Positions 1-44,209 of a stretch of DNA of 44,209 nt are shown here, one piece after another. Position 1 is the first letter of the stretch. Each line of letters opens with the position of its first letter. Source of the DNA: a virus. Where the stretch lies: the UHGV virus genome UHGV-0377591; one strand, 5' to 3'. The notes under the pieces are model-generated. The model was not told the origin of the DNA and did not search any database. It saw only the letters and a list, made by a program, of their open reading frames with translations. The translations under genes and the position numbers were made by a program.

Positions 1-2
1 AA

Positions 3-44
3 CCGAATGAAATGCTGGTAGTGACAGAAGAGGATTTGGAATAG
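3..44 (+). CDS. 3' end of an ORF entering from the left edge (…PNEMLVVTEEDLE*); probably the wrapped end of the primase/helicase gene
   Basis: Open frame from the window edge to TAG at 42-44. Codon phase matches ORF 42013..44209 if position 44209 joins position 1. Confidence 0.4.
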   Translation, partial: PNEMLVVTEEDLE

Positions 45-46
45 GT

Positions 47-76
47 AAAAAAAAAGAAAGGGGCGTTAAGCCCCTT
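47..76 (-). terminator. Rho-independent terminator after the HTH gene (also closes the rightward ORF ending at 44)
   Basis: Stem GGGGC-GTTA-GCCCC at 60-74 preceded on the plus strand by A9 (47-55), which is a T-run on the minus strand. Confidence 0.7.
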
Positions 77-281
77 CACCGAACGCCAGCCACTTGGCGT
101 CTACTTGCAGCACTTCCGCCAGTTTAAACAGCGTCGCCGGGCGGACGTCCTGAGTTACCCCAAGTGCCAGTTGGTTAATCGCGCCCTGGGAAACGCCAGT
201 CAGGACAGCCAGACGGCGCTGGGAGATGCCGAGTTCTTTGCGGCGTTGTTCTACACGGATGCCTAGTTCAGATGGTTGCAT
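66..281 (-). CDS. XRE-family helix-turn-helix transcriptional regulator (Cro/CI-like), 71 aa
   Basis: ORF track; HTH signature ELGISQRRLAVLTGVSQGAINQL; GGAG ribosome-binding site upstream; diverges from the early operon. Confidence 0.8.
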   Translation of the reverse strand: MQPSELGIRVEQRRKELGISQRRLAVLTGVSQGAINQLALGVTQDVRPATLFKLAEVLQVDAKWLAFGEGA

Positions 282-311
282 GTCAATTACTCCTTAGTCA
301 GTTGATATGTG

Positions 312-325
312 AATAGTACCATATT
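312..325 (-). promoter_or_regulatory. Imperfect operator palindrome AATAG-TACC-ATATT upstream of the HTH gene
   Basis: Minus-strand reading gives TACTATTCACAT about 30 nt upstream of the HTH start, the same core as the class II promoters below; no good -35. Confidence 0.4.
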
Positions 326-345
326 AATTATTTTAGAAAAGCCCA

Positions 346-374
346 TTGACATGTGAATAGTTCGCTATTATAGT
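346..374 (+). promoter_or_regulatory. Early sigma70-like promoter (class I) with operator palindrome in the spacer
   Basis: TTGACA (346-351), 17-bp spacer, TATAGT (369-374); AATAG-TTCG-CTATT at 356-369 lies inside the spacer. Confidence 0.6.
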
Positions 375-14187: not shown

Positions 14188-14190
14188 AAA

Positions 14191-15591: not shown

Positions 15592-15594
15592 TGG

Positions 15595-18283: not shown

Positions 18284-18288
18284 CGCGT

Positions 18289-18813: not shown

Positions 18814-18842
18814 TTGCGCACCCCAACATAATAGGATACTAT
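18814..18842 (+). promoter_or_regulatory. Class II promoter with operator palindrome overlapping the -10
   Basis: TTGCGC (18814-18819), 17-bp spacer, TACTAT (18837-18842); AATAG-GATA-CTATT at 18830-18843. Confidence 0.5.
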
Positions 18843-18883
18843 TCACTTACACCAACAATGTTAACTCAAACAGGATCTACACC

Positions 18884-19075: not shown

Positions 19076-19114
19076 GCTAGTATAGGACAAATCCTAAACA
19101 CGAGGAAGTAAAGC

Positions 19115-29500: not shown

Positions 29501-30124
29501 CTAAACCTCTTTCATTGAGTTAATCTTACGTAAGACGCCTTCGAAAAGGCGTGGGTCTATGCTATCGCAAAGACCTTTGTATTCATATGCTAATTCAATT
29601 TTTCTATGAAACCATGCTACGTGTGCCTCTTGAGCGGTTTCGTAAGCGCCTATTTGTTCAGATACGCCATCCACGGATACTTGAGCGATGAATCTTTTCT
29701 TTTGTTTATGGAAATGTACGCCGAGTGGGTGTTCGCCTCGAAGAGCGTCGTGGGCTGTTAGGAAAGTATTGAGGGATTTAGGGATAAAAACACAGTTAGA
29801 AGCATCGTAAACCTTATTTCCCGGGTTAAGTAAATCCTTATCTATCTGCCACCCAGGTACATAAAAATCATCAAACCAGACCTTGAAATTACTGAACACC
29901 AACCAATCGTCCGACACGCGGCAACCTATATAAGTTCTGTTTCTTTGCTGCCATTTCTTGTCGTAGCACCTCTTTAACATGTTCTTCCATACGGCGTAGG
30001 ACGCTATATGCACCCCTCCGCAACTTATTGGTGAAACATCGTTAATACCCACACCAAAAACAATTCCCATATTAAACCCTATAAGAAAACCCCATGAAGA
30101 TTGGTCGATGCCAGAGATAGGCAT
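29501..30124 (-). CDS. Putative homing endonuclease-like protein with AP2-like DNA-binding domain
   Basis: C-terminal AP2-like GVHFHKQKKRFIAQVSVDGVSEQIGAYETAQEAHVAW; N-terminal catalytic domain not assigned; true start probably internal. Confidence 0.45.
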   Translation of the reverse strand: MPISGIDQSSWGFLIGFNMGIVFGVGINDVSPISCGGVHIASYAVWKNMLKRCYDKKWQQRNRTYIGCRVSDDWLVFSNFKVWFDDFYVPGWQIDKDLLNPGNKVYDASNCVFIPKSLNTFLTAHDALRGEHPLGVHFHKQKKRFIAQVSVDGVSEQIGAYETAQEAHVAWFHRKIELAYEYKGLCDSIDPRLFEGVLRKINSMKEV

Positions 30125-31307: not shown

Positions 31308-32789
31308 TTACTGCTGAGCGGTGTCTTGTTGCTGCGCCGACTGCGGAATCTCTCCTGCTACCCGAGCAACAGCACCTAACGGCAGCGGTGTATCCTCGAT
31401 AGCGTTCTGAATGTCTTCATCAGTCCAGTCGGTTACGCCAGCCTTACGCAGCGCGGCGTAATAAGCAGTGGCGGGTAACAAGCCAGCGTTAATATCCGCC
31501 ATCCACTGCGCGCGGTCCTGAGCGGTCATAGGTTGCAGGAAGAACTCCATATTCAGTTTGAACTCAATCTCTGTGCCTTCACGCAACCCTAGCATCGCAG
31601 CTACCCAGCGCAGCGCATCGGTATACGCCATGCTTACGTTACGTGCGATTGTCGCCATAACAGACGTATCAGCGCCACGTTGCAGACGGGCCGATTCAGC
31701 GGTGATTTGCTGAGTCGGGGTGATAAGCTGCGCGCCAATCTGGATGGCTTGGTTCTCTTTATCCAGCATGTTCTGCTTAGCGAGGTTGTTCTCTCCGGCC
31801 TGAACCAGAAACGCATTGCCGCCGTAACCGATGTTATGGCCCGAACGTGAACCCATTCGCACGCCGTGGGGGTTGGCCTCTTTCCACTGCTCCATGCTCA
31901 TATTCTCACCCGGGGCGATGAACAAAGTAGGCTGGCCTACTACGAAGCTGGATTCCTCATTGTCCGCGCTGTTGCGGAAATGCCCGATATTAAGTTCAGC
32001 CAACGGCAGCAAAGGCGCATCGTCTACAGTGGCGTCGTTGTTGCTTGCTCCGATGAACGTGAACGGGATTTTGCCGCGTAACTGTTCGCCAAGTTCCGGG
32101 AATATTTCGATTACTTCATCCTGGGCACCACCTCCGGCATCGAAGCGATAGATTCGCTGGCGATAGCGGCTGTCAATCAGGTCAAGGACACGGTATTGCT
32201 CACCGAACTTGGTTTCAAACTCTGCGCCAGGTTCTGAGTATTCCCACACCTCACGCAGCACGACCATTGTCACACGGTTAACCGAACCGATGCGGGTCAG
32301 TCGCCAGTTGATGATGTTCTCCGCAGTGTAGAACGCGATTACCGGGTTTAATAATCCTGCGTTCTGCTCTGCTGCCGTTGCCGCTGCTGTCTCCGGCGCG
32401 TCCACCAGCAGCCCGCCACGGCCAACCGAGTCAATCTCCATCAGCGTGTCCTGCGCGTGCTGCCACAGCCCAACACCGGAACCGTCGGCATTGTGCAACA
32501 GGTACTCCAGTTCAGGTGGAATAATTTGCTCGGGGTCTTTGCGCATGACACTGCCGACCATCCCGGCCAGGGTACGTTTAGTGAAGTTGTAGCAGATAGC
32601 GCCGTTCTCATATTCTTCCTGTCGCTGGGCTGCGTAGGTCGGGTCGGGTTCGTTCTTACCGACGTTGCGCAGATAGCTAATAAGGTCACCTTCCAGCGCA
32701 TGACGTACCTTCTGCCATTTATCGAAGTGGTGCAGCCATTCCCGGTGTTTTGTCTTAACACCTTGATTCTGACCGTTCATAGTTAACAT
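31308..32789 (-). CDS. Portal protein, 493 aa
   Basis: Size and position immediately after the large terminase gene. Confidence 0.85.
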   Translation of the reverse strand: MLTMNGQNQGVKTKHREWLHHFDKWQKVRHALEGDLISYLRNVGKNEPDPTYAAQRQEEYENGAICYNFTKRTLAGMVGSVMRKDPEQIIPPELEYLLHNADGSGVGLWQHAQDTLMEIDSVGRGGLLVDAPETAAATAAEQNAGLLNPVIAFYTAENIINWRLTRIGSVNRVTMVVLREVWEYSEPGAEFETKFGEQYRVLDLIDSRYRQRIYRFDAGGGAQDEVIEIFPELGEQLRGKIPFTFIGASNNDATVDDAPLLPLAELNIGHFRNSADNEESSFVVGQPTLFIAPGENMSMEQWKEANPHGVRMGSRSGHNIGYGGNAFLVQAGENNLAKQNMLDKENQAIQIGAQLITPTQQITAESARLQRGADTSVMATIARNVSMAYTDALRWVAAMLGLREGTEIEFKLNMEFFLQPMTAQDRAQWMADINAGLLPATAYYAALRKAGVTDWTDEDIQNAIEDTPLPLGAVARVAGEIPQSAQQQDTAQQ

Positions 32790-32801: not shown

Positions 32802-34052
32802 TTAAAGTGCGAAAGTCACCGGGATGTTGATTACTGGTTTAACCACCGGCATCTCGTAAACTACAGGATAGCCCAGGGCATCTGCCATATGGTCGATGAT
32901 GCCGTCTTTGGATGGCTCCCCGTTATCGTCATATGCCTGCTGCTCCAGCGTCTTCGCTATCTCAGGGCATAAGTGGTCGTTAACCCACAGCTTACCTTTT
33001 TCCAGTGCGGTATTCACCGCTAAAACACGGTCTTTAACCGGCGGGTTGGCAGATTTAGCGCGAACATCGAACCCCGCCTGCTGTAGTAAGGCAATATCGG
33101 AGATTGATGCCGAGTTTGTCTTGCGGTTCTTGCCGCTGGCGTCGGGGTACACGACGATGCGGTGGCCCTGCGACTTCCACTTCTCTGTAATTACGCGCAC
33201 GGTATCCGGCGTATCGAACAGGCCTTTCAGTTCTGCTACCGCGTGCCAGCCGTCTTTACGTTGCACATACACGGCGCTGGCGTTCTTCGTAACGTTGAAG
33301 TCCTGCCCGATGTACAGCGTGTCGCCCGGTTGGATTGTCTCTTTGCTGCGATGCTTACGTCGGTCGTAGGCGTAGTAGACGCTGCCGTATGTCAGGTTAA
33401 CGAACTCCCCATTCAGGTACGCGTTAATCAGTTGCGCTGGGTAAGTCTCGGTCAGCGAGCTAATGTAGTCAGGCGGCAGGAATCGCGCGTTCTCGTGGGT
33501 GGAAGCCTGCACCATTGAGTAACTCGGTGTCGGGTTCTCTTTGAACTTGGCGTAGACGAACTTGAACCCTTCCGGCGTCGTGGTGACGGAGATGTGGTTG
33601 GTTACACCAGGGATAACCAGACGCATACGGGCGACGATTTTGTTCCATGCCAGTTCAGCTTTTTCTCGGCTCAGTACGTCCAGTTCATCCACGACCGCGG
33701 CGGCGATTTTGAAACCCACAATCGAACCGGGGTTATCCATAGAACGACAGATAACCGTTCCGAGCACCGTCTTACCGCGAGTAACCACGACCTCTTTGTC
33801 TCCGGATTTAACCAGCACATCAAGGCCGAGCAGGTTAGCCGCTTCCTCGAATGTCGGGTAGAAGATGTCACGGATGGCGGGATAGGTAGGGCCGAAGTAG
33901 CCCAGGCGCGTACCAGGGTGCTTGAGCATAAACGTAAGCAGGTCAAGGCAGCCGACAAACGTCTTGCCACTACCGAAGCCGCCTACGTAGGCCTTGTATT
34001 TGTTGTCACAATTCAGGAACAGTGCCTGCGGCGCGGATAGCTGAATACTCAT
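32802..34052 (-). CDS. Terminase large subunit, 416 aa
   Basis: Walker A YVGGFGSGKT; Walker B AAVVDELD; followed by the portal gene. Confidence 0.9.
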   Translation of the reverse strand: MSIQLSAPQALFLNCDNKYKAYVGGFGSGKTFVGCLDLLTFMLKHPGTRLGYFGPTYPAIRDIFYPTFEEAANLLGLDVLVKSGDKEVVVTRGKTVLGTVICRSMDNPGSIVGFKIAAAVVDELDVLSREKAELAWNKIVARMRLVIPGVTNHISVTTTPEGFKFVYAKFKENPTPSYSMVQASTHENARFLPPDYISSLTETYPAQLINAYLNGEFVNLTYGSVYYAYDRRKHRSKETIQPGDTLYIGQDFNVTKNASAVYVQRKDGWHAVAELKGLFDTPDTVRVITEKWKSQGHRIVVYPDASGKNRKTNSASISDIALLQQAGFDVRAKSANPPVKDRVLAVNTALEKGKLWVNDHLCPEIAKTLEQQAYDDNGEPSKDGIIDHMADALGYPVVYEMPVVKPVINIPVTFAL

Positions 34053-34594
34053 TCCTCTACCTCACCCATGTTCGTTGTTACAATTTTACCTACAGGCTCC
34101 GCAACACTGAAAATAATCTCAGTCGGTGCCGTTTCTTCGGCGGATTCAACTGGTTTCTCTTTGCCAAGGCCAAGTTTCGCAGCGGCAAACGTAGCAGAGA
34201 TACCTGCGGCCCCTGTCTCAGTGAAGTATGCCTCTTCCAATGCCTGCGCTGTCTCCCATGCTTCTGCGAATGCGGGAATCTCGCGCAGCCACAGCTTAAT
34301 AATCGGGATAGTGACGCCGATGCGTAAGGCAAAGCGGGCCAGTGACGGCGGTTTGTCCTGAATCAGCGGGCGTTCGTCGCCTTTGGAGGTAGGCACAAGC
34401 TCCCACGACGTGCGGTCGAAGAAACGAATCAATTCGTCGCAATAGTCCGGGTCCCACAACGCGGCGGAATTACGGGATGATTGATAAAGGCTCTGTTTAC
34501 CGAGCGGTCGTTTACGGCGACGGTTTGCGCTAACAGCTTCTTCATGTGCAGCTTGCACCACCTCTGGCGATGGCTGCTTGAGTTTCAGCTTCAT
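34049..34594 (-). CDS. Terminase small subunit (putative)
   Basis: Start moved to ATG 34594 (AAGGGG upstream); ATGA overlap with the large terminase start. Confidence 0.55.
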   Translation of the reverse strand: MKLKLKQPSPEVVQAAHEEAVSANRRRKRPLGKQSLYQSSRNSAALWDPDYCDELIRFFDRTSWELVPTSKGDERPLIQDKPPSLARFALRIGVTIPIIKLWLREIPAFAEAWETAQALEEAYFTETGAAGISATFAAAKLGLGKEKPVESAEETAPTEIIFSVAEPVGKIVTTNMGEVEE

Positions 34595-34685
34595 ATAATC
34601 CCCTTGCATATGCGTCTGACCATCAGAGCGCACCAGACGCGCCCTACGCGTCTAAAGGGATTATATAAGGGGATTGGGCGGGATG

Positions 34686-34804: not shown

Positions 34805-35047
34805 TTAGTAGCCGCATTCGTTCTCCTCTTTAGCAATACGTTGCTCTGTTTTAGTGATACCCCGGCGCGTGAATAACACCGGGCTTGTCTTAACGTGCGT
34901 CATCAGACGATTGTTATAAATTACGTGGCGCTCGCAATCAACGTCTTTGCTGTACTTCGCAATCGTCATTTCGTTGATGCCGGTTTGTCGGCATGTCTCA
35001 GCCATCGTGCCGTATTCTTTAATCAGGTTCGGAATGCTGGTAATCAT
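34805..35047 (-). CDS. Small HTH-containing protein, 80 aa
   Basis: Start moved to ATG 35047 (GAGGAA upstream; ATGA coupling); helix-turn-helix-like MAETCRQTGINEMTIAKY. Confidence 0.5.
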   Translation of the reverse strand: MITSIPNLIKEYGTMAETCRQTGINEMTIAKYSKDVDCERHVIYNNRLMTHVKTSPVLFTRRGITKTEQRIAKEENECGY

Positions 35048-35214
35048 CCTAAGAAATTCCTCGTTGTCCACATCGCATTCGGATATTTGTTATCACGGTC
35101 CTGCACTACGGCAATCATGTTTCCTCGTTGCACAAGACAGAAGTGCCGCTGTTGCTCGCCGTTGTATCGACGCCAGATTGCTTCTTCTATTGCGGCGTTG
35201 ATGTCACTGAACAT
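35044..35214 (-). CDS. Hypothetical small protein, 56 aa (not in the ORF track)
   Basis: Manual translation MFSDINAAIEEAIWRRYNGEQQRHFCLVQRGNMIAVVQDRDNKYPNAMWTTRNFLG. Confidence 0.35.
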   Translation of the reverse strand: MFSDINAAIEEAIWRRYNGEQQRHFCLVQRGNMIAVVQDRDNKYPNAMWTTRNFLG

Positions 35215-35301
35215 TAATATCTACCCCACAGAAATCCAACCAATAACCCAATGAAGTAACTAAGACCGACCAGACCAATAACCACCTCAAGACTCATACT
35301 C

Positions 35302-35484
35302 TCACCCCACTATCTCATCACCAAGCCACGCCGTTTCTCGTATATCGTCGACCACACAGGCGGCGTGCTCCCGGCTGATTGCAAAAATGTAGAAGCTGAA
35401 CTTCTTCCCGTCGGCGTCGATGTGGTTAACCGAGTAGGGTTTCCATAGGACGCCATCAATAACTACCGGTTCAGGCGCTTTCAT
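35302..35484 (-). CDS. Hypothetical protein, 60 aa
   Basis: Start moved to ATG 35484 (GGGTGG upstream); the track start is TTG. Confidence 0.45.
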   Translation of the reverse strand: MKAPEPVVIDGVLWKPYSVNHIDADGKKFSFYIFAISREHAACVVDDIRETAWLGDEIVG

Positions 35485-35749
35485 CTGGCGACCACCCAAG
35501 GCCACTAAGCATGTTAGTAATCTCCGACTCAAGCCGTTGGCCTAACTCTGATTTAGTGCAATGCTCTGACCATTCTCCTGACTCCAGCAAGCCGAGCATA
35601 TTTTCTATGTCCGCCGTGAGTGCGAGTAACAACTTAAACGCCTCCAGTTGAAATTCACCGTTAATCGACAGTTGCCCGCCTAACGTCTGTTTCTCTGACT
35701 CAAGAACCTGAATACGGCGTTCGAGCGATGCGATTGTGATTTTAGGCAT
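35471..35749 (-). CDS. Hypothetical coiled-coil protein, 92 aa
   Basis: Start moved to ATG 35749 (AGGGTG upstream). Confidence 0.5.
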   Translation of the reverse strand: MPKITIASLERRIQVLESEKQTLGGQLSINGEFQLEAFKLLLALTADIENMLGLLESGEWSEHCTKSELGQRLESEITNMLSGLGWSPDESA

Positions 35750-35915
35750 TGGTATCACCCTTGTTCAGGTTGAAACGGTTGATAAGTTCGCGGCGGTGCT
35801 CTTGCCACTCTGCGAGTTGTTTTTCCAGGTGTTCGATCATCTCGTCCGCGCCTTTAAGCCACGCTTGCCCGGTCGCAGATTCGACGCATGCTTTTTCATA
35901 TTCGTTGTTAGTCAT
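35742..35915 (-). CDS. Hypothetical small protein, 57 aa (not in the ORF track)
   Basis: Manual translation MTNNEYEKACVESATGQAWLKGADEMIEHLEKQLAEWQEHRRELINRFNLNKGDTNA. Confidence 0.35.
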   Translation of the reverse strand: MTNNEYEKACVESATGQAWLKGADEMIEHLEKQLAEWQEHRRELINRFNLNKGDTNA

Positions 35916-36060
35916 TCTTTACGCTCTCCCCACATGCGATTTAGATACTTGTCCGGCCCCGGGAAACTGTTACGTTTCATCAGTTCCTCGCGTGTCGGGA
36001 ACGGGGTGTGACTGACTTTACGTCCTACACGTAATGGCTTGCTGGACCTTGTTCGCTCAT

Positions 36061-36086
36061 TTCTTCTCTCCTGCATAAGCTGCTTT
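36061..36086. repeat. 26-bp exact direct repeat TTCTTCTCTCCTGCATAAGCTGCTTT, second copy at 36323-36348
   Basis: Identical strings at both sites; each spans the end of an MKITDT-type small ORF. Confidence 0.85.
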
Positions 36087-36124
36087 CAGTTGCTTGTTTT
36101 TGAAGGCTTTGGTATCTGTGATTT

Positions 36125-36322
36125 TCATTCGTAGCCCTCAAACTTACGTAAATCGCCTTTAGTGATATACTTACGGCGGGCCAATATCGTGTCCACGTCA
36201 TAATCCATTAGTGCGCCCGTTTCTTCCCCATCTGGCGTCATACTCGGCCCGTAAACAGAGAGACCCATCTCATTAAGGTATGTCATGAACTTCTCTACCG
36301 TTTTCTTCTGGTAACGCTTCAT
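36125..36322 (-). CDS. Hypothetical protein, 65 aa
   Basis: ORF track; ATGA coupling on both sides. Confidence 0.5.
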   Translation of the reverse strand: MKRYQKKTVEKFMTYLNEMGLSVYGPSMTPDGEETGALMDYDVDTILARRKYITKGDLRKFEGYE

Positions 36323-36468
36323 TTCTTCTCTCCTGCATAAGCTGCTTTAAGTGCCTTCATCGCCGCGGTCCAGAACGCGTCCGCTGGAATATTGCTGCTC
36401 AGGTTACTTACGGCGATACGTGCCATCAGTTGTGCGTCTTCGAATGCTTCGGTGTCTGTGATTTTCAT
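36319..36468 (-). CDS. Hypothetical small protein, 49 aa (not in the ORF track); a truncated 23-aa copy lies at 36057-36128
   Basis: Manual translation MKITDTEAFEDAQLMARIAVSNLSSNIPADAFWTAAMKALKAAYAGEKK; the short copy reads MKITDTKAFKNKQLKAAYAGEKK. Confidence 0.35.
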   Translation of the reverse strand: MKITDTEAFEDAQLMARIAVSNLSSNIPADAFWTAAMKALKAAYAGEKK

Positions 36469-36473
36469 ATTCA

Positions 36474-36686
36474 TTATCCCGCGTTGAAGGAGCCAAGTAC
36501 GATTCCGCTTTCTTTCGGTTTCTTGATTTCGGTAACTTTTACGTCATCGTTGAAGTTATTCATGGTTATTGGGTCGTCCTTAGCGCGAACCAGGCACAAG
36601 GCTTCTTCTGGCGACTTAGCCCACACCACAAAAGAATCGTATTGGTCGTAATCACACCAGCTGGCTTCTACTAAATATAATTTCAT
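36474..36686 (-). CDS. Hypothetical protein, 70 aa
   Basis: ORF track; GGAG ribosome-binding site; TTGACT-17-TATATT promoter-like sequence on the minus strand at 36720-36748. Confidence 0.5.
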   Translation of the reverse strand: MKLYLVEASWCDYDQYDSFVVWAKSPEEALCLVRAKDDPITMNNFNDDVKVTEIKKPKESGIVLGSFNAG

Positions 36687-36769
36687 CTTCTCTACTCCGT
36701 TCTCGTTGTCGATGGAGTAAATATAGTAGGGTCGCAGGTAATAGTCAACTAGTCATTGCAGAAAATAGA

Positions 36770-36803
36770 TAAAAAAAAATCCCGGCTGGGTCAGGGCCGG
36801 GAT
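36770..36803 (-). terminator. Strong rho-independent terminator after the endolysin gene
   Basis: Stem ATCCCGGC/GCCGGGAT with a 9-nt loop, followed on the minus strand by T9. Confidence 0.85.
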
Positions 36804-36867
36804 AAAACTGGAGAGCAGAGGGATGGAACAGGAGGTGATTTAAGTATCGTCGGATTAGTCTTAGGTG

Positions 36868-37365
36868 TTAACCTTTCACCGCTCGCCCGATAGCCTCCGC
36901 CTCCTGCCACGGCTTACCATCGAACAGCGCCAGACGACCAGCGGTACGGCGCCGGAGACCAAGCAGTTTCCTGCCTTTCTGGTAGACAAACTGACCCATA
37001 ATCCGACGGCACTCCGCTACATTTCCCAGGCGCACCGCGTCATCGAAGTCGGCTAGCTGGTTATCTTTCTCTATAACCCCTGTACCCACGTTGAAACAAA
37101 GGTCACAAATTGCGTCGAACTGCGCTTGATTGAATATCGGGTGCACTAATTCGTCGGCTTTCCTGACGGCCCTAGCCATATCGCGATTAAGTAGCAGGAG
37201 GCCTTGTCCGGGAGTGATGGTCTTGCCCGGTGTTACGTCCGGTCCGTAGTGGCCGTAGCCTATCGTCAGGTACTTCTCGTTTGACGTAGCACGATACGCA
37301 GTTCCGCGGAATCCCTCGAACGCGGCGGTGAAATGCAGTCCATTATCTGAAATGTTTCGAGACAC
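36868..37365 (-). CDS. Endolysin, GH24 (T4-lysozyme-type) muramidase
   Basis: Start moved to GTG 37365 (GGAGGA upstream). Catalytic signature FEGFRGTAYRATSNEKYLTIGYGH. Confidence 0.8.
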   Translation of the reverse strand: MSRNISDNGLHFTAAFEGFRGTAYRATSNEKYLTIGYGHYGPDVTPGKTITPGQGLLLLNRDMARAVRKADELVHPIFNQAQFDAICDLCFNVGTGVIEKDNQLADFDDAVRLGNVAECRRIMGQFVYQKGRKLLGLRRRTAGRLALFDGKPWQEAEAIGRAVKG

Positions 37366-37615
37366 GCTTATGTCCTCCGTATGACAGCCACGCCTGTCGA
37401 ATCTGACGCAGCGCAACTAATGTGATTAACGTCTCTGGCAGCGTTGGTGACATGCTGCCCTGTAACAGGTGGATACATCCGGCGGCGCAGACGATAGCAG
37501 TCAGGATATAGAGCACCCGGCCGAACAGCCCGTCGTCAACGCTGGGGTGATACACATTAAACAGCGATGTACCCCCGATTGCCAGCATACCGCCGAACCA
37601 GAATAACTCATTCAT
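37343..37615 (-). CDS. Two-transmembrane lysis-cassette protein (antiholin or second holin)
   Basis: Start moved to ATG 37615 (ATGA overlap with the holin stop); transmembrane segments LFWFGGMLAIGGTSLF and VLYILTAIVCAAGCIHLL. Confidence 0.45.
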   Translation of the reverse strand: MNELFWFGGMLAIGGTSLFNVYHPSVDDGLFGRVLYILTAIVCAAGCIHLLQGSMSPTLPETLITLVALRQIRQAWLSYGGHKRVSKHFR

Positions 37616-37916
37616 CCGGGCCCCCTCGACGTGCGATGTATTCTCCGGCAACGATACCGGAGAGACGGGAATAAATAGGCATCCAGAGAACGGCGATGAT
37701 AAAGCCCAGGCCAGCTATCTCGCGCTCCCCGGTAATACCGAACCATTGGGCTGCGAGAGGTGCACCAAATACGGCGCAGGTGAAGCCAGTTACGATAAAG
37801 AAGAAGCCGTCGATAGGGCCGGAAATAACGGACTTATGTTGTCGTAGTCCGATGACCCCTCCGGCGAGTGCGGCAGCCAGAAGCCAGCCTGTCACTGTTT
37901 CAGTAAATTTATCCAA
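37608..37916 (-). CDS. Holin (three predicted transmembrane segments)
   Basis: Hydrophobic segments WLLAAALAGGVIGL, FFFIVTGFTCAVFGAPLAA and LGFIIAVLWMPIY; first gene of the lysis cassette. Confidence 0.6.
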   Translation of the reverse strand: MDKFTETVTGWLLAAALAGGVIGLRQHKSVISGPIDGFFFIVTGFTCAVFGAPLAAQWFGITGEREIAGLGFIIAVLWMPIYSRLSGIVAGEYIARRGGPDE

Positions 37917-37975
37917 GATGAATCCTCCAGGTGCGTATTAAGTATGCAGTAACTGGAGGATACCACGGGTAGGAA

Positions 37976-38416
37976 TTATCCTAATAGTTGTTTGGTAATA
38001 ATCTTGCCGCCGTTGTTGGTGTCGAACTTCGATGCAACGGCTACGCCACCATGTGCCGAATACTCACATTCCATGGCCGCTAGTGCATAGGGTGCGCCAG
38101 ACCCAACGGCGGCAAAGCTATCGGCAACAGGAATAACAGAACTTAGTGCGCAATCCCATGATTTATAAAACGCGACTTTATACACCTTTTCTGTGTCTTT
38201 CACAAACACCAGGGCTTCGAAATCGAAGTCATAGTGCTTAGGCACTAAAATTCCCCGGTCACCAACGAGAATATCCCCTACCCCAGCATCGCCAGCGACC
38301 CCAATGACAGCGAAATAATTCTCGTATATCTTGGTATCTGTGTTGTAGCAGTTACTTCCGCACACAACACGGGTGTCACAGGCCATCGTCTTTCCGTCGA
38401 ACGCGATAGTAGTCAT
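37976..38416 (-). CDS. HslV / proteasome-beta-like N-terminal nucleophile hydrolase, 146 aa
   Basis: Thr right after the start Met (MTTIAFDG); AVIGVAGDAGVGD and AAVGSGAPYALAA blocks parallel bacterial HslV as recalled; GGAG ribosome-binding site. Confidence 0.6.
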   Translation of the reverse strand: MTTIAFDGKTMACDTRVVCGSNCYNTDTKIYENYFAVIGVAGDAGVGDILVGDRGILVPKHYDFDFEALVFVKDTEKVYKVAFYKSWDCALSSVIPVADSFAAVGSGAPYALAAMECEYSAHGGVAVASKFDTNNGGKIITKQLLG

Positions 38417-38706
38417 TTGCGTCTCCAGATGTATTGTCGTCTCTGCGGTTTCGTCGGAATATCATCGTATCCCAGCGATTTCCAGTAATTAAATAGCCGA
38501 TTAGCGATAGCGGCGCGCTCCTTTGTTTTAAACTCACCGAGATTCACGGCCTTCCCGTTCTGGAATCCACAGGCGCGGACCGCTTTGCGTCTGGCCTGAA
38601 TCTCAGGGTACATCGCGTTACCCCGACGCTTGTATATCCGGGTGTTCGCTCTCGGCGACAGCGGCGCAAGGCCGCTTCGTTCCAGGATGTCAGTTGCGAG
38701 GCTCAT
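38413..38706 (-). CDS. Hypothetical basic protein, 97 aa
   Basis: Start moved to ATG 38706 (ATGA coupling; the track start is TTG). Confidence 0.45.
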   Translation of the reverse strand: MSLATDILERSGLAPLSPRANTRIYKRRGNAMYPEIQARRKAVRACGFQNGKAVNLGEFKTKERAAIANRLFNYWKSLGYDDIPTKPQRRQYIWRRK

Positions 38707-38897
38707 ATTCCGAGAATCTCGCGGGCCATTTCTTCTGTAACTTTCGAACAAGGTGCGTACATTACCTGTTCGGCGAATTCACGTAACTTTGCTTCAAGTT
38801 TCAGATAAGCGTCGTATTCTACATAATCGCCGTATGCATACTCAGCCATCTCAGGCTCTGGCAGACCCCACGCTTTTACCTCATATCTCTGCACCAT
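38703..38897 (-). CDS. Small hypothetical protein (paralog A), 64 aa
   Basis: Start moved to ATG 38897 (TGATG coupling). Shares YVEYDAYLKLEAKLREF with paralog B. Confidence 0.5.
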   Translation of the reverse strand: MVQRYEVKAWGLPEPEMAEYAYGDYVEYDAYLKLEAKLREFAEQVMYAPCSKVTEEMAREILGI

Positions 38898-39079
38898 CAA
38901 TCCACCCCTTCCACATGTGTAACCGACCCACAGTTCGCGCACTCGACGTAATCCGGAAACTGGTCTTTGTATTTCTGTAACTCGGCTTCGAGTTTCGCGT
39001 AGTCTTCATAACTTACGTACTCCCCGTTTACTTTGCTATCGAAGTGGCCATCTTCATAAAAGCCTTTGCGAACAGCCAT
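38897..39079 (-). CDS. Small hypothetical protein (paralog B) with C-terminal CxxC, 60 aa
   Basis: ORF track; YVSYEDYAKLEAELQKY; ends ECANCGSVTHVEGVD. Confidence 0.5.
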   Translation of the reverse strand: MAVRKGFYEDGHFDSKVNGEYVSYEDYAKLEAELQKYKDQFPDYVECANCGSVTHVEGVD

Positions 39080-39081
39080 AA

Positions 39082-39285
39082 TTATCTCTCCTGTTTACCA
39101 AGTCGCTTAGGTGAGCAGATAGCGCGTACCTCTGAATCGTTGGGCTTGTCGCCCTGAAACAGGAAGTGCGCGTTCTCTGCGGCGCGTGCCGCTGACTGGC
39201 ACGCCTCCATCGAGTAAAACGTTTCTGATGCCGCCAGTTGCATCTGGCCTGCGGTAAGTGTCCAGATAAATAAGATGCTGGTCAT
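39082..39285 (-). CDS. Small protein with N-terminal hydrophobic segment, 67 aa
   Basis: Start moved to ATG 39285 (ATGA coupling); begins MTSILFIWTLTAGQMQLAAS. Confidence 0.45.
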   Translation of the reverse strand: MTSILFIWTLTAGQMQLAASETFYSMEACQSAARAAENAHFLFQGDKPNDSEVRAICSPKRLGKQER

Positions 39286-39620
39286 TTCTTTAGTCCGCAT
39301 ATTCTGCACATCATTGCGGAAGGTGACTTACGACTCCCAACGAATCGCCAGTGATGGGAACATTCCGACGTATCCCCCTTGCAGCAACCAGATTGCTCGG
39401 ACACTTGCGCGCACTTGCGGATAAGTTTGTACGCCTCCACGTCACCTGTAGCCAACGCCTTATGCAACTCCTTAATATGTTCTGACGCATCACGTAACTG
39501 ATTCTTGAGTGACAACACCTCGTGCGCCAGGTCTTCGCACTGTTGCTTGTACGGGCTGTTGTTCACCTGCTGCCGTAGTTGGTCGATCAGGTACTCGAAT
39601 ACTTCGTTTTTGTTACTCAT
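39282..39620 (-). CDS. Hypothetical protein with Cys-rich C-terminus, 112 aa
   Basis: ORF track; C-terminal CCKGDTSECSHH…CRIC. Confidence 0.5.
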   Translation of the reverse strand: MSNKNEVFEYLIDQLRQQVNNSPYKQQCEDLAHEVLSLKNQLRDASEHIKELHKALATGDVEAYKLIRKCAQVSEQSGCCKGDTSECSHHWRFVGSRKSPSAMMCRICGLKK

Positions 39621-39763
39621 CAGCTACCTCCAGTTCGCCGTAAACATGCTCGTTGTCGCCGCTGCATACACTGCAAACTCGCAACTCAGCATAAAGCTGT
39701 TCCAGTTTCTCAACCGTCAGATACTTATACATCTTCCGTCTCTCCTCTCGTTTGTGTAAATGA

Positions 39764-39792
39764 ATAGTAGCCTATTCTATCTTAATGTGCAA
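39764..39792 (-). promoter_or_regulatory. Class II promoter (leftward) with operator palindrome
   Basis: Minus strand TTGCAC, 17-bp spacer, TACTAT; plus-strand AATAG-TAGC-CTATT at 39763-39776. Confidence 0.5.
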
Positions 39793-40024
39793 GTAAATTT
39801 TATTGGTGTTTTAAAGATAATCGTTCACTGCGAATCCAGTAGTACCTCGGGCGTCGTACCCACTGACGCCATCGCATAACACGGTACTTGTTGCCGTCTG
39901 ACACAACAATAAGCCCGAATCGCTTTTCTCCGTTTCTACCGTCCAGGTTACGATGTCATTCGGTTTCATTGTTGCATCTCCTGCAATAGTCGCTTCGATT
40001 GTTGCGTTTGGTGAAATAGAACAA

Positions 40025-40060
40025 AAATGAGAAAAATGATACGCTGCTGTGTAGCAGCGT
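40025..40060 (-). terminator. Rho-independent terminator
   Basis: Perfect 8-bp stem ACGCTGCT-GTGT-AGCAGCGT (40041-40060) followed on the minus strand by a T-rich run. Confidence 0.6.
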
Positions 40061-40106
40061 AAGTCACTCAGTAAAATCTTAAACTATTGACCTGTTACAC
40101 CACCTG

Positions 40107-40319
40107 TTACACCAGCGATGGCGTCTTAGGCAGCGGCATCCAGTGGGTTACATCTTCAAGGGTATTTCCGGATAAATACGTGAAACCTCTATATTTCTTA
40201 TAATCGATTGGGCTTACAACCCAGTTCCAATATGCTGCCACGATTTCACCTTGACTAAATGCAAGTAACATTTGCGTATATTCCGGCATCCGCCCACTAC
40301 ACTTAATCCACTCGCCCAT
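40107..40319 (-). CDS. DUF551-like phage protein, 70 aa
   Basis: N-terminal EWIKCSGRMPE and C-terminal VTHWMPLPKTP match the family hallmarks as recalled. Confidence 0.55.
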   Translation of the reverse strand: MGEWIKCSGRMPEYTQMLLAFSQGEIVAAYWNWVVSPIDYKKYRGFTYLSGNTLEDVTHWMPLPKTPSLV

Positions 40320-40322
40320 ATC

Positions 40323-40514
40323 TCACTTCTGATTCGCTATAAACAACACACCAGCTTTCCACGCCCGCCACGCGAGACGCGTCTTAACGTTCAGGTACTC
40401 TTTCTTAGAGCCCTTGTTAACAGGCAGACCCTCGACGACGGCCCACCGTTCAAATGCTTCTCTCATAACTAATAACTCCGATAACTTTAGATTTCTCGCG
40501 CCTGGCGCAACCAT
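40323..40514 (-). CDS. Hypothetical protein
   Basis: ORF track; start uncertain. Confidence 0.4.
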   Translation of the reverse strand: MVAPGARNLKLSELLVMREAFERWAVVEGLPVNKGSKKEYLNVKTRLAWRAWKAGVLFIANQK

Positions 40515-40705
40515 GTTCTATGTAGTAGCGCGCCTGCTTGACGCTTTCGCAACGCGTCAGAGTAACCCACCAGAAAAAAGCCAACGCGAACCTGCACGGC
40601 AGGTGTAATTCGTTTCTCACCGAAGGCGGTAACCCACTCTTCGCTAACTATGCGGTATTTACTTAACACGGCAACCTCCCTGGGAGTCGTCGGCACGAGC
40701 ATCAT
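40487..40705 (-). CDS. Hypothetical protein
   Basis: ORF track; overlaps both neighbours, start uncertain. Confidence 0.4.
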   Translation of the reverse strand: MMLVPTTPREVAVLSKYRIVSEEWVTAFGEKRITPAVQVRVGFFLVGYSDALRKRQAGALLHRTWLRQAREI

Positions 40706-40868
40706 GATTCGATGCCGTTCGTATTGCTCGTAAACTATTTAACATTCTCTCACTAGTAGATGTAATAACCGTTATACCATCCACCAGGTGGATCTCGTAA
40801 CGTTCGGCTACGAAGTATATTTCCTCGAATTCATGATGTTTCAGTTCTTCAAATAATTCTTCCATCAC
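40659..40868 (-). CDS. Hypothetical acidic protein
   Basis: ORF track; start uncertain. Confidence 0.4.
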   Translation of the reverse strand: MMEELFEELKHHEFEEIYFVAERYEIHLVDGITVITSTSERMLNSLRAIRTASNHDARADDSQGGCRVK

Positions 40869-41056
40869 TTCGCCCCTTTGAATTTAAAATTGTTGCCGAT
40901 GAGTTCTAAATCTCCCCCAGGCATGCGTATTACCGAGTTTACTCCTCCCACATTTTGCACAATCACGATGTACTCCCCTGGAAATAAATCAGATTTTAAT
41001 TCAATTATGCCGTGGCTACCGTCGGCACATTTCACCAACTGACCCTCCTTAAACAT
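40865..41056 (-). CDS. Hypothetical protein, 63 aa; first gene of the leftward accessory operon
   Basis: ORF track; class II promoter about 35 nt upstream. Confidence 0.5.
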   Translation of the reverse strand: MFKEGQLVKCADGSHGIIELKSDLFPGEYIVIVQNVGGVNSVIRMPGGDLELIGNNFKFKGAK

Positions 41057-41090
41057 AACCCTAACTCCTCTGTCTCGTTTCGATAAGTGA

Positions 41091-41119
41091 ATAGTATCCT
41101 ATTATATTGGGGTGTGCAA
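41091..41119 (-). promoter_or_regulatory. Class II promoter (leftward) with operator palindrome
   Basis: Minus strand TTGCAC, 17-bp spacer, TACTAT; plus-strand AATAG-TATC-CTATT at 41090-41103; extra half-site GAATAGTT at 41122-41129. Confidence 0.55.
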
Positions 41120-41492
41120 GAGAATAGTTACGTTGCCGTTGTGATTCTTTAGGGAAGGTTGTGCCTTTATTCTTATTACTTGGTAACTAAAGGGCAGGCC
41201 TTAAGCCTGCCCAATAATCGTTACATTTTTACGGTTGCGAATCTACGGCACATTAAGAAAATCAGATACTTAAGATATATGCTGCCGATGAGAATAGAGC
41301 TTGCCCAAGGCAACCGGAGATACTAAGAAAGGAAAGTTACTATAATTCTCATGTTCAGTAAACTGCCGCCTAACACTTCGCGTTGGGCGCTCGTTTTCGG
41401 CGGGTTTTACAAGGTGAACAGGAATCAAAGTAACTAAGATATAGAAGCACCTTAAACGAAGATTTTCATAATGTCAATAGTTGAGATTATGT

Positions 41493-41521
41493 TTGATTTC
41501 CCATTATTCGCAATGTATACT
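41493..41521 (+). promoter_or_regulatory. Sigma70-like promoter for the rightward regulator/primase operon
   Basis: TTGATT (41493-41498), 17-bp spacer, TATACT (41516-41521); no operator palindrome. Confidence 0.5.
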
Positions 41522-41553
41522 TGGTTTCGTTAACTGATGATGAGGGGTTGAGA

Positions 41554-41724
41554 ATGACACAGAATGAAGTAGCTGAGCGTATTGGGGTTACTCGCCGCAC
41601 GCTTAATAACTGGTTAAAGAGTGGGAAGTTCCCGGATTGTTGTATCCGCATTATGGGCCGCCGGCAGCCGGGTACGTTTGACCCGGAGAAAGTGGAAGCG
41701 TGGATTAAGGAGAACGTGAAATGA
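41554..41724 (+). CDS. Small HTH DNA-binding protein (AlpA/excisionase-like fold), 56 aa
   Basis: Start moved to ATG 41554 (GAGGGG upstream). MTQNEVAERIGVTRRTLNNWLKSGKFP. Confidence 0.6.
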   Translation: MTQNEVAERIGVTRRTLNNWLKSGKFPDCCIRIMGRRQPGTFDPEKVEAWIKENVK

Positions 41725-41954
41725 CCGAATTTCAGTCGCGCGTATTTACGGCAGTCGTTTCCTTAACACGTAAAAAAGGGTCGTGCAGCGTTATCGACTT
41801 GCGCCGCAGTTATTTTACGTACTATAGTTCTGCCATTATTGAAGGGTCGTTGAAAGTGCTGGTTAAATCCGGTGTCGTGAAAAACGTTGGCGGGAAATAT
41901 AGCGCTGTTGCTGAAGTTCGCGGAATGATCGCTACTTTAGAAGACCTGGAATAA
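41721..41954 (+). CDS. Hypothetical protein, 77 aa
   Basis: ORF track; ATGA coupling. Confidence 0.55.
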   Translation: MTEFQSRVFTAVVSLTRKKGSCSVIDLRRSYFTYYSSAIIEGSLKVLVKSGVVKNVGGKYSAVAEVRGMIATLEDLE

Positions 41955-42012
41955 AAGAAAGCCCCGACGCGGTGAACGCCGAGGCCAAATTACTTGCTGA
42001 AGGAAATACAAC

Positions 42013-44209
42013 ATGTCCGATGTAATTTTATCCTACTCGTGGTCACGTCGCAACGCGCGGGCAGAGAAAAAGGATATAAACGTCAGAACCACACACACGG
42101 CAACACTGGACGACCTGAAAGAGCTAATTCAGCCGCTTGATGCTGTTCGTGACGGAATTAACCCGAAGACCGCGCCGGGGTATATCACTGCCGCGTGTGA
42201 CTCTACGCACAGCACCGTAAAAGACCCTGAAACCGCTGACTTTAAGCAAGCACGTAAAGGCTTCTTCTATCGCTGCGACGCGTCTGTAAGCAAATCGTCG
42301 CTCGCCTATCTGGACTTCGACAGCGCAACACCGGAAGAGTATCAGGAAGCTGTGCGCCTGGTTAAGCGCAGCCGCCTGGCTATGTGCCTCTACACCACGG
42401 CATCCCATACCGATGAGTCACCACGCTTTCGCGTCGTCATGCCGATGGCCCGTCCTGTTGAGGGTGGTGACATCATCCGTGTTCGTCATGGCTTGCTTGA
42501 GCACTTCTTCAAAGGCATGGGCGCTGACCGCAGCGGGTTTACTCTGTCACAACCGATGTACCTGCCGCCGGTTGGCTCTACGGTTATCTGGTCGCGCCGC
42601 AACGACCTGATTGACCCGGACGAGTTACTGGAAGGTATCCCCGCCGTTGACGTTAGCAGCGCATCGGATTACCAGATACCGGAAGAACTGCGTACCGCGT
42701 TTACTGATGCGTTTGAGGCGCTGGCGTTTGAGTACGGCGGTGTTATGACGCCCCGCGGCCTTAAGATGCCAGCTACGCCGGAACATGCAGAAAATTACAG
42801 CGACCCTACGCCGCGGCCGGACGACTTCCTGCTGTGCTTCCCGCGCGAGGGCTACGAAGCGCCGAACGTAACCATGATCCACGACACTGACATTACGGCA
42901 ACCGAAGGCATGTCGCCGAAAGAGGTGTGGAAGTATGCGTGTGATGCGACCGGGCTGCCGTTCAGTGAAGTCGCCGAGGCTATCGGATGGGGTGCGCGTG
43001 AATCTGTTTCATGCAGCCTGGACGACCTGGAAGACGATGATGGCTCAGAGGAGGACGAGCTACCGGAACCGGTAAAGGCTGATTTCGTCGTTGAAGGTTA
43101 TATGCCGTCAGACTGCATCTGGGATATCGTCGGGGAGTCGGGCACATACAAATCGTTCTATACGCTGGGGATGATGTATCTTAGCGCCGCCGGATACCGG
43201 TTCGCCGGGGCGGACACCCAGCGTTGCCATCACTTCTATATCGACGGTGAGGGTGGCGCGGCTACACGCACACGTATTGACGCACTCGCGGCTAAATACG
43301 GCGAGGAAGGTAAAGATTATGTACATGTCATCGACATGGGCGAAGTCGGAAAACTGAAAAGCCTGATTAAGTTAATGCGCGAAACTGCGGGGGATGAACC
43401 TATTGGCATGGTTGCGTTTGACACCCTCAACCAGACGCTGGCCCTGACGATCGATAAGTTCGACGAGAACAGCTCATCAACGGCAATCGGTATGGGTAAA
43501 GTTATCGCCATCCTGAAAGAAGTACGCGACGCAACTAAAGCTGCGGTGGGTGTTGTCCACCATACACCGAAGGGCGGAAAGAAAGCCCGTGGTAGCGGGG
43601 CACTGTATGCTGGCGTCGACGTGGAACTGACAATCGAACGTGCAACCGTCCGCCAGATAAACGTATACCACTCTAAATTCAAACATGGGCCTCAACAGAA
43701 AACGGTTGGCATGGTGCTGGAGTCTGTACAGTTCCGTGAAGCACCACCGCCGAAAGAGTACCGTGCTGTCGAGTTCCTGGGTAGCACAGAGGAGTACGGC
43801 ACAATCGTAAACCTGGACCTGCCTGAGCCGCACAAGGCGCTTGTGCTGATGCCGTGGGGCTTCGAGCCGTTCAAGACTGACGAGGAGAAAGAGCGGGAAG
43901 AAGGGCTGACAAAGGAAGGTAAAGAAAACGTAAAGAATGCTGTAAAACGTGGGAAGGATGAAGGGCGTAAGGAATCGATACTCGCCGCGCTTGAAGACCT
44001 GCAACAGTCAGATGACACAGGTCGCGGTTTTACTCAGCAGCAGATAGTGGCCCGTTCCGGTGACTTTTCTGTGACTAACACCCATCTTGATAAAATGCTG
44101 AAAGATGGTGAACTAATGCTAGGCTGTGATGCTAATGGCGAAGTAGTACCGAGAACGTATCGTATGCCTGAAAGAATAGGGGATAGACTAAGACCGAAGA
44201 CAATATACG
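42013..44209 (+). CDS. Primase/helicase: AEP (Prim-Pol) N-terminal domain plus RecA-like helicase domain; 3'-truncated by the window edge
   Basis: Open frame from ATG 42013 to the window end (732 codons; absent from the track because it has no stop). AEP-like LAYLDFDS and TASHTDE; Walker A IVGESGTYKS; Walker B MVAFDTLN. Confidence 0.8.
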   Translation, partial: MSDVILSYSWSRRNARAEKKDINVRTTHTATLDDLKELIQPLDAVRDGINPKTAPGYITAACDSTHSTVKDPETADFKQARKGFFYRCDASVSKSSLAYLDFDSATPEEYQEAVRLVKRSRLAMCLYTTASHTDESPRFRVVMPMARPVEGGDIIRVRHGLLEHFFKGMGADRSGFTLSQPMYLPPVGSTVIWSRRNDLIDPDELLEGIPAVDVSSASDYQIPEELRTAFTDAFEALAFEYGGVMTPRGLKMPATPEHAENYSDPTPRPDDFLLCFPREGYEAPNVTMIHDTDITATEGMSPKEVWKYACDATGLPFSEVAEAIGWGARESVSCSLDDLEDDDGSEEDELPEPVKADFVVEGYMPSDCIWDIVGESGTYKSFYTLGMMYLSAAGYRFAGADTQRCHHFYIDGEGGAATRTRIDALAAKYGEEGKDYVHVIDMGEVGKLKSLIKLMRETAGDEPIGMVAFDTLNQTLALTIDKFDENSSSTAIGMGKVIAILKEVRDATKAAVGVVHHTPKGGKKARGSGALYAGVDVELTIERATVRQINVYHSKFKHGPQQKTVGMVLESVQFREAPPPKEYRAVEFLGSTEEYGTIVNLDLPEPHKALVLMPWGFEPFKTDEEKEREEGLTKEGKENVKNAVKRGKDEGRKESILAALEDLQQSDDTGRGFTQQQIVARSGDFSVTNTHLDKMLKDGELMLGCDANGEVVPRTYRMPERIGDRLRPKTIY

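What the first reader, a model, noticed from the sequence alone, without database searches (positions are those of the whole stretch)
42013..44209. Window is probably a complete circular or circularly permuted genome opened inside the primase/helicase gene
The primase/helicase frame is open to the last base of the window. If base 44209 is followed by base 1, the frame continues without a stop (…KTIY-E-PNEMLVVTEEDLE) to the TAG at 42-44, directly ahead of the terminator at 47-76. The phase match has a one-in-three chance by accident, and 14 further codons are open. The gene content is also that of a whole phage: replication, packaging, head, tail and lysis.
Basis: inference. Interest (0 to 1): 0.5.

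Follow-up and report, generated by a model that had tools for sequence, protein, structure and literature searches.

The report
Whole phage genome, cut inside one gene
The window is one complete copy of an E. coli tailed-phage genome (genus Kagunavirus) whose circular assembly was cut open inside the helicase-primase gene, which is an ordinary by-product of how such phages package DNA and how assemblers report circles.

Summary

- **Frame across the ends:** the ORF starting at 42013 is open to base 44209. Joined to base 1 it runs to TAG 42-44 and gives a 746-aa protein.
- **Match to relatives:** the joined protein is 96.5-96.9% identical, end to end, to the 745-746-aa helicase-primases of Kagunavirus phages EM1, HSE2 and Bas73. 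It covers phrog_3228 from 1 to 766 of 766 positions.
- **Junction in other phages:** 59 phage records carry the joined ends as one uninterrupted stretch. Five aligned relatives show no indel at 44209|1.
- **Junction in other assemblies:** two other public assemblies of the same sequence cross the junction with zero mismatches.
  - One is a MEGAHIT contig of 44,324 b whose first and last 115 b are identical. 44,324 - 115 = 44,209, the window length.
  - The window itself starts at base 1 of a SPAdes contig of 44,264 b (= 44,209 + 55).
- **Completeness:** the window is colinear with the whole genome of phage Snoke.
- **Virion DNA form (inferred):** it is most likely linear, circularly permuted and terminally redundant, from pac-type headful packaging. 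This rests on Snoke's near-identical terminase and published PhageTerm results, not on reads.
- **Correction:** the hairpin after the stop has its T-run on the minus strand, so it terminates the convergent HTH gene.

This is ordinary and of low interest.

The parts
42013..44209 (+). Helicase-primase gene, codons 1-732 plus the first base of codon 733. It is cut by the end of the window.
   Evidence: phrog_3228 matched at E 7.7e-301.
1..44 (+). Last two bases of codon 733, codons 734-746 and the TAG stop (42-44) of the same gene.
   Evidence: Five relatives align across 44209|1 without any indel. Other assemblies cross the junction with 0 mismatches.
42265..42642 (+). Core of the N-terminal AEP-type primase domain (about residues 85-210). 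It holds the DxD motif (D101, D103), the TxSH motif (H132) and R140.
43066..43578 (+). RepA/DnaB-like P-loop helicase domain (AAA_25, residues 352-522). Its Walker A reads GESGTYKS.
   Evidence: Pfam PF13481, E 2.7e-17. Alignment.
47..77 (-). Intrinsic terminator of the convergent HTH gene: hairpin 57-77 followed by T9 (47-55 read on the minus strand).
   Evidence: The same site is annotated on that strand in Snoke and fBC-Eco01.
66..281 (-). Cro/C2-like HTH_3 regulator (71 aa), convergent with the helicase-primase gene.
   Evidence: Pfam HTH_3, E 1.1e-12. Snoke ortholog annotation.
302..374 (.). Divergent promoter-like region with two 25-nt direct repeats (302-326 and 346-370).
34049..34633 (-). 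Small terminase subunit.
   Evidence: phrog_3064, E 5.6e-71. 181/194 residues identical to Snoke TerS.
32802..34052 (-). Large terminase subunit.
   Evidence: Terminase_6N and Terminase_6C. 407/416 residues identical to Snoke TerL.
31308..32789 (-). Portal protein.
   Evidence: phrog_145, E 4.9e-148.

Best explanation
The window is one full unit length (44,209 bp) of a Kagunavirus (Guernseyvirinae) E. coli siphophage genome, taken from a metagenome assembly. The assembly graph closed into a circle, and the assembler broke the circle at an arbitrary k-mer. That break fell in codon 733 of the 746-codon helicase-primase gene, and the k-mer overlap was trimmed off. Bases 44209 and 1 are therefore true neighbours.

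Inferred steps: in virions the DNA is most likely linear, terminally redundant and circularly permuted. The small and large terminase would cut concatemers by the headful starting from a pac site, so reads have no fixed ends and tile a circle. After injection the redundant ends would recombine to give the circular replicating form.

The split gene encodes a fusion of an AEP-type primase domain and a RepA/DnaB-like helicase domain. It is the replicative primase-helicase of a module that also contains a family-A DNA polymerase and a gp2.5-like single-strand-binding protein.
For: Shown:
- Frame continuity.
- End-to-end identity of the joined protein to orthologs of the same length, and full coverage of phrog_3228.
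- 59 of 117 matching phage records hold the joined ends as one contiguous place. That place lies at widely different record positions and on both strands.
- No indel at the junction in five relatives. 58 nt crossing the junction are conserved even in Snoke.
- The exact 746-aa protein is present in public assemblies.
- ENA contig k115_217878 (44,324 b) has an exact 115-b end overlap and matches the circularised window with 0 mismatches across the junction. Logan contig SRR3313046_33378 does the same.
- ENA contig NODE_395_length_44264 starts at window base 1, and 44,264 - 55 = 44,209.
- Colinearity with all of Snoke.
- No prophage copy in 5,426 complete E. coli genomes.

Inferred (headful packaging):
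- TerL is 97.8% and TerS 93.3% identical to those of Snoke.
- Snoke is predicted pac-type by PhageTerm (PMC6776784).
- PhageTerm found no obvious termini in fBC-Eco01, whose assembly had a median read depth of 651 (PMC9825357).

Primase domain.
Against: - No reads were available, so coverage across the junction, a pac site and the terminal redundancy were not observed.
- The last 55 b of the SPAdes contig could not be read, so the k=55 overlap is inferred from the contig's name.
- The three assemblies agree at every base read. They may therefore come from one sample or one sequencing run, which would make them independent assemblies but not independent samples.
- A circular assembly is also produced by genomes with collapsed direct terminal repeats or by cos genomes.
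- The fBC-Eco01 paper mentions a cos site. It does so in a generic passage about terminase and gives no data on ends.
Confidence: 0.85

Rival explanations
1. The genome has fixed physical ends (cohesive ends or a short direct terminal repeat). The circle is an assembly effect of a collapsed repeat or of ligated or concatemeric molecules. Bases 44209 and 1 are still neighbours, but the virion DNA is not permuted.
For: Circular contigs arise this way too (established knowledge). The fBC-Eco01 paper speaks of a cos site in a generic sentence. TerL falls below the curated cutoff of TIGR01547, the PBSX-type terminase model, so the terminase type is not settled by sequence here.
Against: PhageTerm predicts pac-type headful packaging for Snoke, whose TerL is 97.8% identical. 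PhageTerm found no obvious termini in fBC-Eco01, whose assembly had a median read depth of 651. Relatives' records are opened at many different points.
Confidence: 0.08
2. The DNA is a real covalently closed circular episome, that is, plasmid-like carriage of the phage in its host, and not only a circular map.
For: A Kagunavirus genome is deposited as a circular 44,086-bp 'plasmid' (CP088689.1) of a human blood E. coli isolate. The phage has an HTH regulator pair with divergent promoters.
Against: No integrase or partition genes appear in the colinear Snoke annotation. The plasmid record is typed non-mobilizable and no replicon type is listed for it. Published members are described as virulent. 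One such record is more simply explained by phage DNA carried along in a culture.
Confidence: 0.05
3. The window is incomplete or chimeric, and its two ends are not neighbours in the real genome.
For: In Snoke and three close relatives a 311-bp insert with a 98-aa gene lies between the helicase stop and the terminator. A piece could in principle be missing here.
Against: The frame, the protein length, 59 contiguous relatives, zero-mismatch crossing in two other assemblies and contig lengths equal to 44,209 + k all agree. The Snoke insert lies after the stop codon, not at 44209|1.
Confidence: 0.01

Closest known systems
Escherichia phage Snoke (MK931441) and other Kagunavirus genomes such as EM1, HSE2, Bas70-76, fBC-Eco01 and LF7074P1
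   Same: The whole gene order is the same. Window 6117-20252 is 97% identical to Snoke. TerL is 97.8% identical. The tailspike is in the same 90%-identity cluster. The helicase-primase is 96.5-96.9% identical to those of EM1, HSE2 and Bas73.
   Different: - It is mosaic: about 83% of the window aligns to Snoke.
- The helicase-primase is a different allele from Snoke's, at 30% identity.
- It lacks Snoke's gene 051 and the intein in the head-morphogenesis gene.
- It has two free-standing HNH genes.
- No record in the phage collection matches the whole genome at 95% or more.
pac-type headful packaging phages (P22, SPP1, Sf6)
   Same: The assembly is circular with no fixed ends. The layout is small terminase, large terminase, portal. 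Snoke's TerS is reported by its annotators as P22 gp3-like, and Snoke is predicted pac-type.
   Different: No pac site was identified here, and no reads were examined. TerL has no detectable sequence relative among solved structures.
AEP primase-helicase fusions (cyanophage S-2L PrimPol, RSF1010 RepB'/RepA, NrS-1 and pRN1-type prim-pols)
   Same: The N-terminal domain has an AEP fold with DxD and sxH motifs. A P-loop helicase domain follows it.
   Different: No Pfam model matches the N-terminal domain. The helicase is RepA/DnaB-like (AAA_25), not superfamily 3. The Walker A has Tyr where Gly is canonical.
T7 gp4 primase-helicase
   Same: It has the same role: one polypeptide joins a primase and a RecA-fold replicative helicase, next to a family-A polymerase and a gp2.5-like SSB. 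The C-terminal tail is acidic.
   Different: The primase is AEP-type, not a zinc-ribbon plus TOPRIM type. No such Pfam hit was found, and the fold matches AEPs.

Membership tests
Kagunavirus (Guernseyvirinae) | Genome-wide nucleotide similarity to genus members (the ICTV genus guide is about 70%) and shared gene order. | tested here: met
   83% of the window aligns to Snoke at 77-97% identity, colinear around the whole circle. All top records are Kagunavirus.
Kagunavirus (Guernseyvirinae) | Siphovirus virion, and a lytic life cycle on Escherichia using a surface glycan as receptor. | not testable with these tools
   There is only indirect support: a G7C gp63.1-like tailspike and no prophage copy in 5,426 E. 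coli genomes.
Complete, circularly closed genome | The two ends are adjacent in independent sequence, with nothing missing or duplicated. | tested here: met
   The parts read of contig k115_217878 (30,423 of its 44,324 b) and of the Logan contig SRR3313046_33378 cross 44209->1 with 0 mismatches. The exact end overlap of 115 b gives 44,324 - 115 = 44,209. No indel in five relatives.
pac-type headful (circularly permuted, terminally redundant) phages | No fixed termini, with read starts spread around the genome and a pac-proximal signature. | not testable with these tools
   No reads were available. Support is indirect: PhageTerm results for Snoke and fBC-Eco01.
pac-type headful (circularly permuted, terminally redundant) phages | A terminase of a type shown or predicted to package by the headful. 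| tested here: inconclusive
   TerL is 407/416 identical to that of Snoke, which is predicted pac-type. Pfam gives Terminase_6N and 6C. TIGR01547 scores 55 bits against a cutoff of 105. No relative among solved structures.
phrog_3228 replicative helicase-primase | Full-length match to the family profile. | tested here: met
   Residues 1-746 match profile positions 1-766/766, E 7.7e-301.
AEP (archaeo-eukaryotic primase) superfamily | AEP catalytic fold with motif I (DxD) and motif II (sxH). | tested here: met
   - D101, D103 and R140 are invariant, and H132 is conserved in at least 90% of 40 relatives.
- The model has pLDDT 84.6.
- The top Foldseek hit is 6zp9 at E 1.5e-3.
- The scores are moderate, and no Pfam model matches.
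AEP (archaeo-eukaryotic primase) superfamily | Primer synthesis activity. | not testable with these tools
   This needs biochemistry.
RepA/DnaB-like (SF4) helicases | RecA-fold P-loop domain with a canonical Walker A, GxxxxGK[ST]. | tested here: inconclusive
   AAA_25 matched at E 2.7e-17. The Walker A reads GESGTYKS, with Tyr in place of the Gly before Lys. This holds in all four relatives aligned that carry this helicase allele, whereas Snoke has AKSHTGKS.
T7 gp4-type primase-helicase | Zinc-ribbon plus TOPRIM (DnaG-like) primase domain. | tested here: not met
   No Toprim or zinc-ribbon hit even at E 10. The N-terminal domain has an AEP fold.

The most novel reading that the evidence does not exclude
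The circle is not only a map. Phages of this genus might persist as closed circular, plasmid-like episomes in E. coli (a carrier state), maintained by the AEP primase / RepA-like helicase and the HTH regulator pair. The hint is a Kagunavirus genome deposited as a circular 44-kb 'plasmid' of a clinical blood isolate (CP088689.1).
Probability: 0.05. Interest if true: 0.4.

Novelty: new member of a known kind. Interest (0 to 1): 0.08.

Why it matters
Mostly for bookkeeping. The contig can be treated as a complete genome. It should be rotated, for example to start at the small terminase gene, so that the helicase-primase is annotated as one 746-aa protein and not as a truncated gene plus an orphan 13-codon tail. 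It adds one more mosaic Kagunavirus, probably a separate species by the 95% rule, to a genus used in phage therapy and synthetic-biology work. Nothing here challenges current knowledge.

Tried and rejected
- **Terminal repeat:** an exact repeat of 5-400 b was searched for and none was found, so the overlap was already trimmed.
- **Solved-structure sequence searches** for TerL, TerS and the helicase-primase found nothing significant.
- **Single-sequence AF2** of residues 1-353 gave pLDDT 33 and was unusable.
- **The search for homologous proteins** with the N-terminal domain returned only 3 hits, one near-identical over the full length and two partial, so no alignment could be built from it.
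- **PDB profile searches:** with A1 the hits fell only on the helicase/VapE parts. With A2 the only relevant hit was a non-significant one to 6zp9, E 1.3.
- **End of NODE_395:** it could not be displayed because that place was merged with the Logan place.
- **Prophage or plasmid origin:** only 190-bp DUF551 matches in E. coli chromosomes, and one phage-as-plasmid record.
- **RNA genes:** no tRNA and no Rfam family.
- **Sample accessions:** a paper search for them found nothing.

Full report
**1. The observation**

The ATG of the last ORF is at 42013-42015, and the frame is open to the last base. Base 44209 is the first base of codon 733. Appending base 1 gives GAA (Glu), then PNEMLVVTEEDLE, then TAG at 42-44, for a 746-aa product. 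It is weak taken alone. No exact terminal repeat of 5-400 b is present.

**2. What the window is**

Megablast places the whole window in the genus Kagunavirus (Guernseyvirinae), the E. coli siphophages of 40.6-45.8 kb. It is colinear in reverse orientation with the complete 44,454-bp genome of phage Snoke:
- Window 51-34645 corresponds to Snoke 34418-1.
- Window 34823-41724 corresponds to Snoke 44214-37391.
- The remainder (41725-44209 plus 1-50) corresponds to Snoke's helicase region, where the two phages carry divergent alleles.

Snoke's annotation covers terminase, portal, capsid, tail, tailspike, lysis and replication genes, so the window has the content of a whole phage. About 83% of it aligns to Snoke. 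No record in the collection matches the whole genome at 95% or more, so it is probably a separate species of a known genus.

**3. Are 44209 and 1 neighbours?**

Four independent lines say yes.

(a) Protein. The joined 746-aa protein aligns end to end with the helicase-primases of EM1 (746 aa, 96.6% identity), Bas73 (746 aa, 96.9%) and HSE2 (745 aa, 96.5%). Even Snoke's 30%-identical allele ends in PKTIYEPNEMLIVTEEDLE. The protein covers phrog_3228 'replicative helicase-primase' from 1 to 766 of 766 positions, E 7.7e-301.

(b) DNA of relatives.
- A 675-b probe made of the last 295 and first 380 bases hits 117 phage records, 59 of them as one contiguous place at 91-94% identity.
- That place lies anywhere from position 839 to 41414 of the records and on either strand. 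This shows that records of this genus are opened arbitrarily.
- Five relatives aligned base by base show no indel at the junction. The only length difference nearby is A9 in the window against A5 at 47-55.
- In Snoke, 58 nt crossing the junction are 94.8% identical.

(c) The same genome elsewhere.
- The exact 746-aa sequence is on record as a called gene product.
- Looking up neighbouring genes retrieved three contigs: ENA ERZ1688061 NODE_395_length_44264_cov_7.75, ENA ERZ27313269 k115_217878 (44,324 b), and Logan SRR3313046_33378 (36,308 b).
- NODE_395 begins at window base 1, with 0 mismatches over 10,903 b.
- The first and last 115 b of the k115 contig are identical, and 44,324 - 115 = 44,209.
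- The parts read of the k115 and Logan contigs match the circularised window with 0 mismatches. Both run straight through 44209->1 with the helicase-primase intact.
- 44,264 - 55 = 44,209 implies the window is the SPAdes contig with its k=55 overlap trimmed. This last step is inferred from the contig name, because the contig's end could not be displayed.
- All three assemblies agree at every base read, so they may share a sample. They are independent assemblies, not proven independent samples.

(d) Completeness. This follows from the colinearity described in section 2.

**4. Physical form (inferred, not shown)**

A circular assembly fits a permuted genome, a collapsed terminal repeat, cos ends or a true circle. 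Three points favour pac-type headful packaging:
- The terminase subunits are 97.8% (TerL) and 93.3% (TerS) identical to Snoke's.
- Snoke is predicted by PhageTerm to use pac-type headful packaging (PMC6776784).
- PhageTerm found no obvious termini in fBC-Eco01, whose assembly had a median read depth of 651 (PMC9825357).

No prophage copy exists in 5,426 complete E. coli genomes. The most likely picture is linear, terminally redundant, circularly permuted virion DNA that circularises by recombination after injection. The phage encodes a PD-(D/E)XK exonuclease and a gp2.5-like annealing and single-strand-binding protein.

**5. The split gene**

Pfam finds only AAA_25, a RepA/DnaB-like P-loop domain, at residues 352-522. 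Nothing matches the first 353 residues even at E 10.

An exhaustive search found 156 relatives of the N-terminal domain. Their other domains are the usual partners of AEP primases: PriCT_1 and PriCT_2, D5_N, DUF5906, VapE, the NrS-1 helix-bundle domain, DnaB_C and AAA_25. A 40-sequence core alignment has invariant D101, D103 and R140, and near-invariant H132.

AlphaFold2 with that alignment gave pLDDT 84.6. Its best structural matches are AEP enzymes:

The name 'primase/helicase' is therefore justified. The primase is AEP-type, however, not the zinc-ribbon/TOPRIM type of T7 gp4. The protein works like gp4 but is not a member of that family.

**6. Correction on the terminator**

The hairpin is at 57-77 and its T9 run lies on the minus strand. 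It terminates the convergent Cro/C2-like HTH gene at 66-281(-). Snoke and fBC-Eco01 are annotated the same way. For the helicase-primase transcript it is a hairpin with no U-tract.

**7. Verdict**

The finding is correct and ordinary. The practical consequence is to rotate the sequence before annotation.

Noticed in passing
window 20242-20730 (+), stop at 20413-20415: A HAD-family polynucleotide phosphatase gene (PF25109, phrog_415) is interrupted by an in-frame TGA where phage EM1 has TGG (Trp58). The other 161 residues are identical to EM1 although 19 nt differ. Possible causes are a fresh nonsense mutation, an error in a 7.75x-coverage contig, or leaky UGA read as Trp. The other loci I fetched do not cover this site.
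   Followed up: partly
window 44153-44209 + 1-41; Snoke L002 34730-34787: The last 19 aa (PKTIYEPNEML(V/I)VTEEDLE) and last 58 nt of the helicase-primase are conserved even between alleles that are only 30% identical overall. The tail is acidic. It could be a docking tail for the polymerase or SSB, as in T7 gp4, or a recombination joint.
   Followed up: partly
window 42013-44209; L001 1132-3339: The helicase-primase is mosaic. fBC-Eco01 combines Snoke's N-terminal primase type with the window's helicase type, and the switch lies at the acidic linker ...DDELPEPVKADFVVEGYM.
   Followed up: partly
window about 43090-43113 (residues 360-367): The Walker A reads GESGTYKS, with Tyr where the canonical motif has Gly before Lys. 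This holds in all four relatives aligned that carry this helicase allele, while Snoke's allele has AKSHTGKS.
   Followed up: no
Snoke L002 34419-34729: Snoke has a 311-bp insert with a 98-aa gene (CPT_Snoke_051) between the helicase stop and the shared terminator. The insert is absent from the window and from the five relatives aligned across this site.
   Followed up: partly
window 29501-30070 (-) and 2454-2954 (+): There are two free-standing HNH endonuclease genes (phrog_953; HNH_3 plus AP2). The first sits just downstream of the Mu-F-like head-morphogenesis gene, the gene that carries a 273-residue intein in Snoke.
   Followed up: partly
window 8379-10751 (-): The tailspike (790 aa) has G7C gp63.1-type domains and a GDSL esterase domain. 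It is in the same 90%-identity cluster as the tailspikes of Snoke, Schulenburg, Sciku and Shashou. This suggests an O-antigen-modifying spike and an E. coli 4s-like host.
   Followed up: partly
plasmid record CP088689.1 (L021): A 44,086-bp circular 'plasmid' of a human blood E. coli isolate is a Kagunavirus genome. It aligns to 67% of window 19210-44209 at 89% identity, and its helicase is annotated 'RepA family'.
   Followed up: partly
window 302-326 and 346-370: Two 25-nt direct repeats (84% identical), each starting with a -35-like TTGAYA, lie between the divergent HTH gene and gene 406-903. They overlap promoter-like sites on both strands and are candidate operators.
   Followed up: no
window 3028-3654 (+) and residues about 325-340 of the helicase-primase: The gp2.5-like SSB ends in ...SVDDLEDDEEGEAPRRERRRR, and the helicase-primase linker has a similar SLDDLEDDDGSEEDE stretch.
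   Followed up: no
window 47-55: The A-run (the T-run of the minus-strand terminator) is 9 long here and 5 long in five relatives.
   Followed up: no
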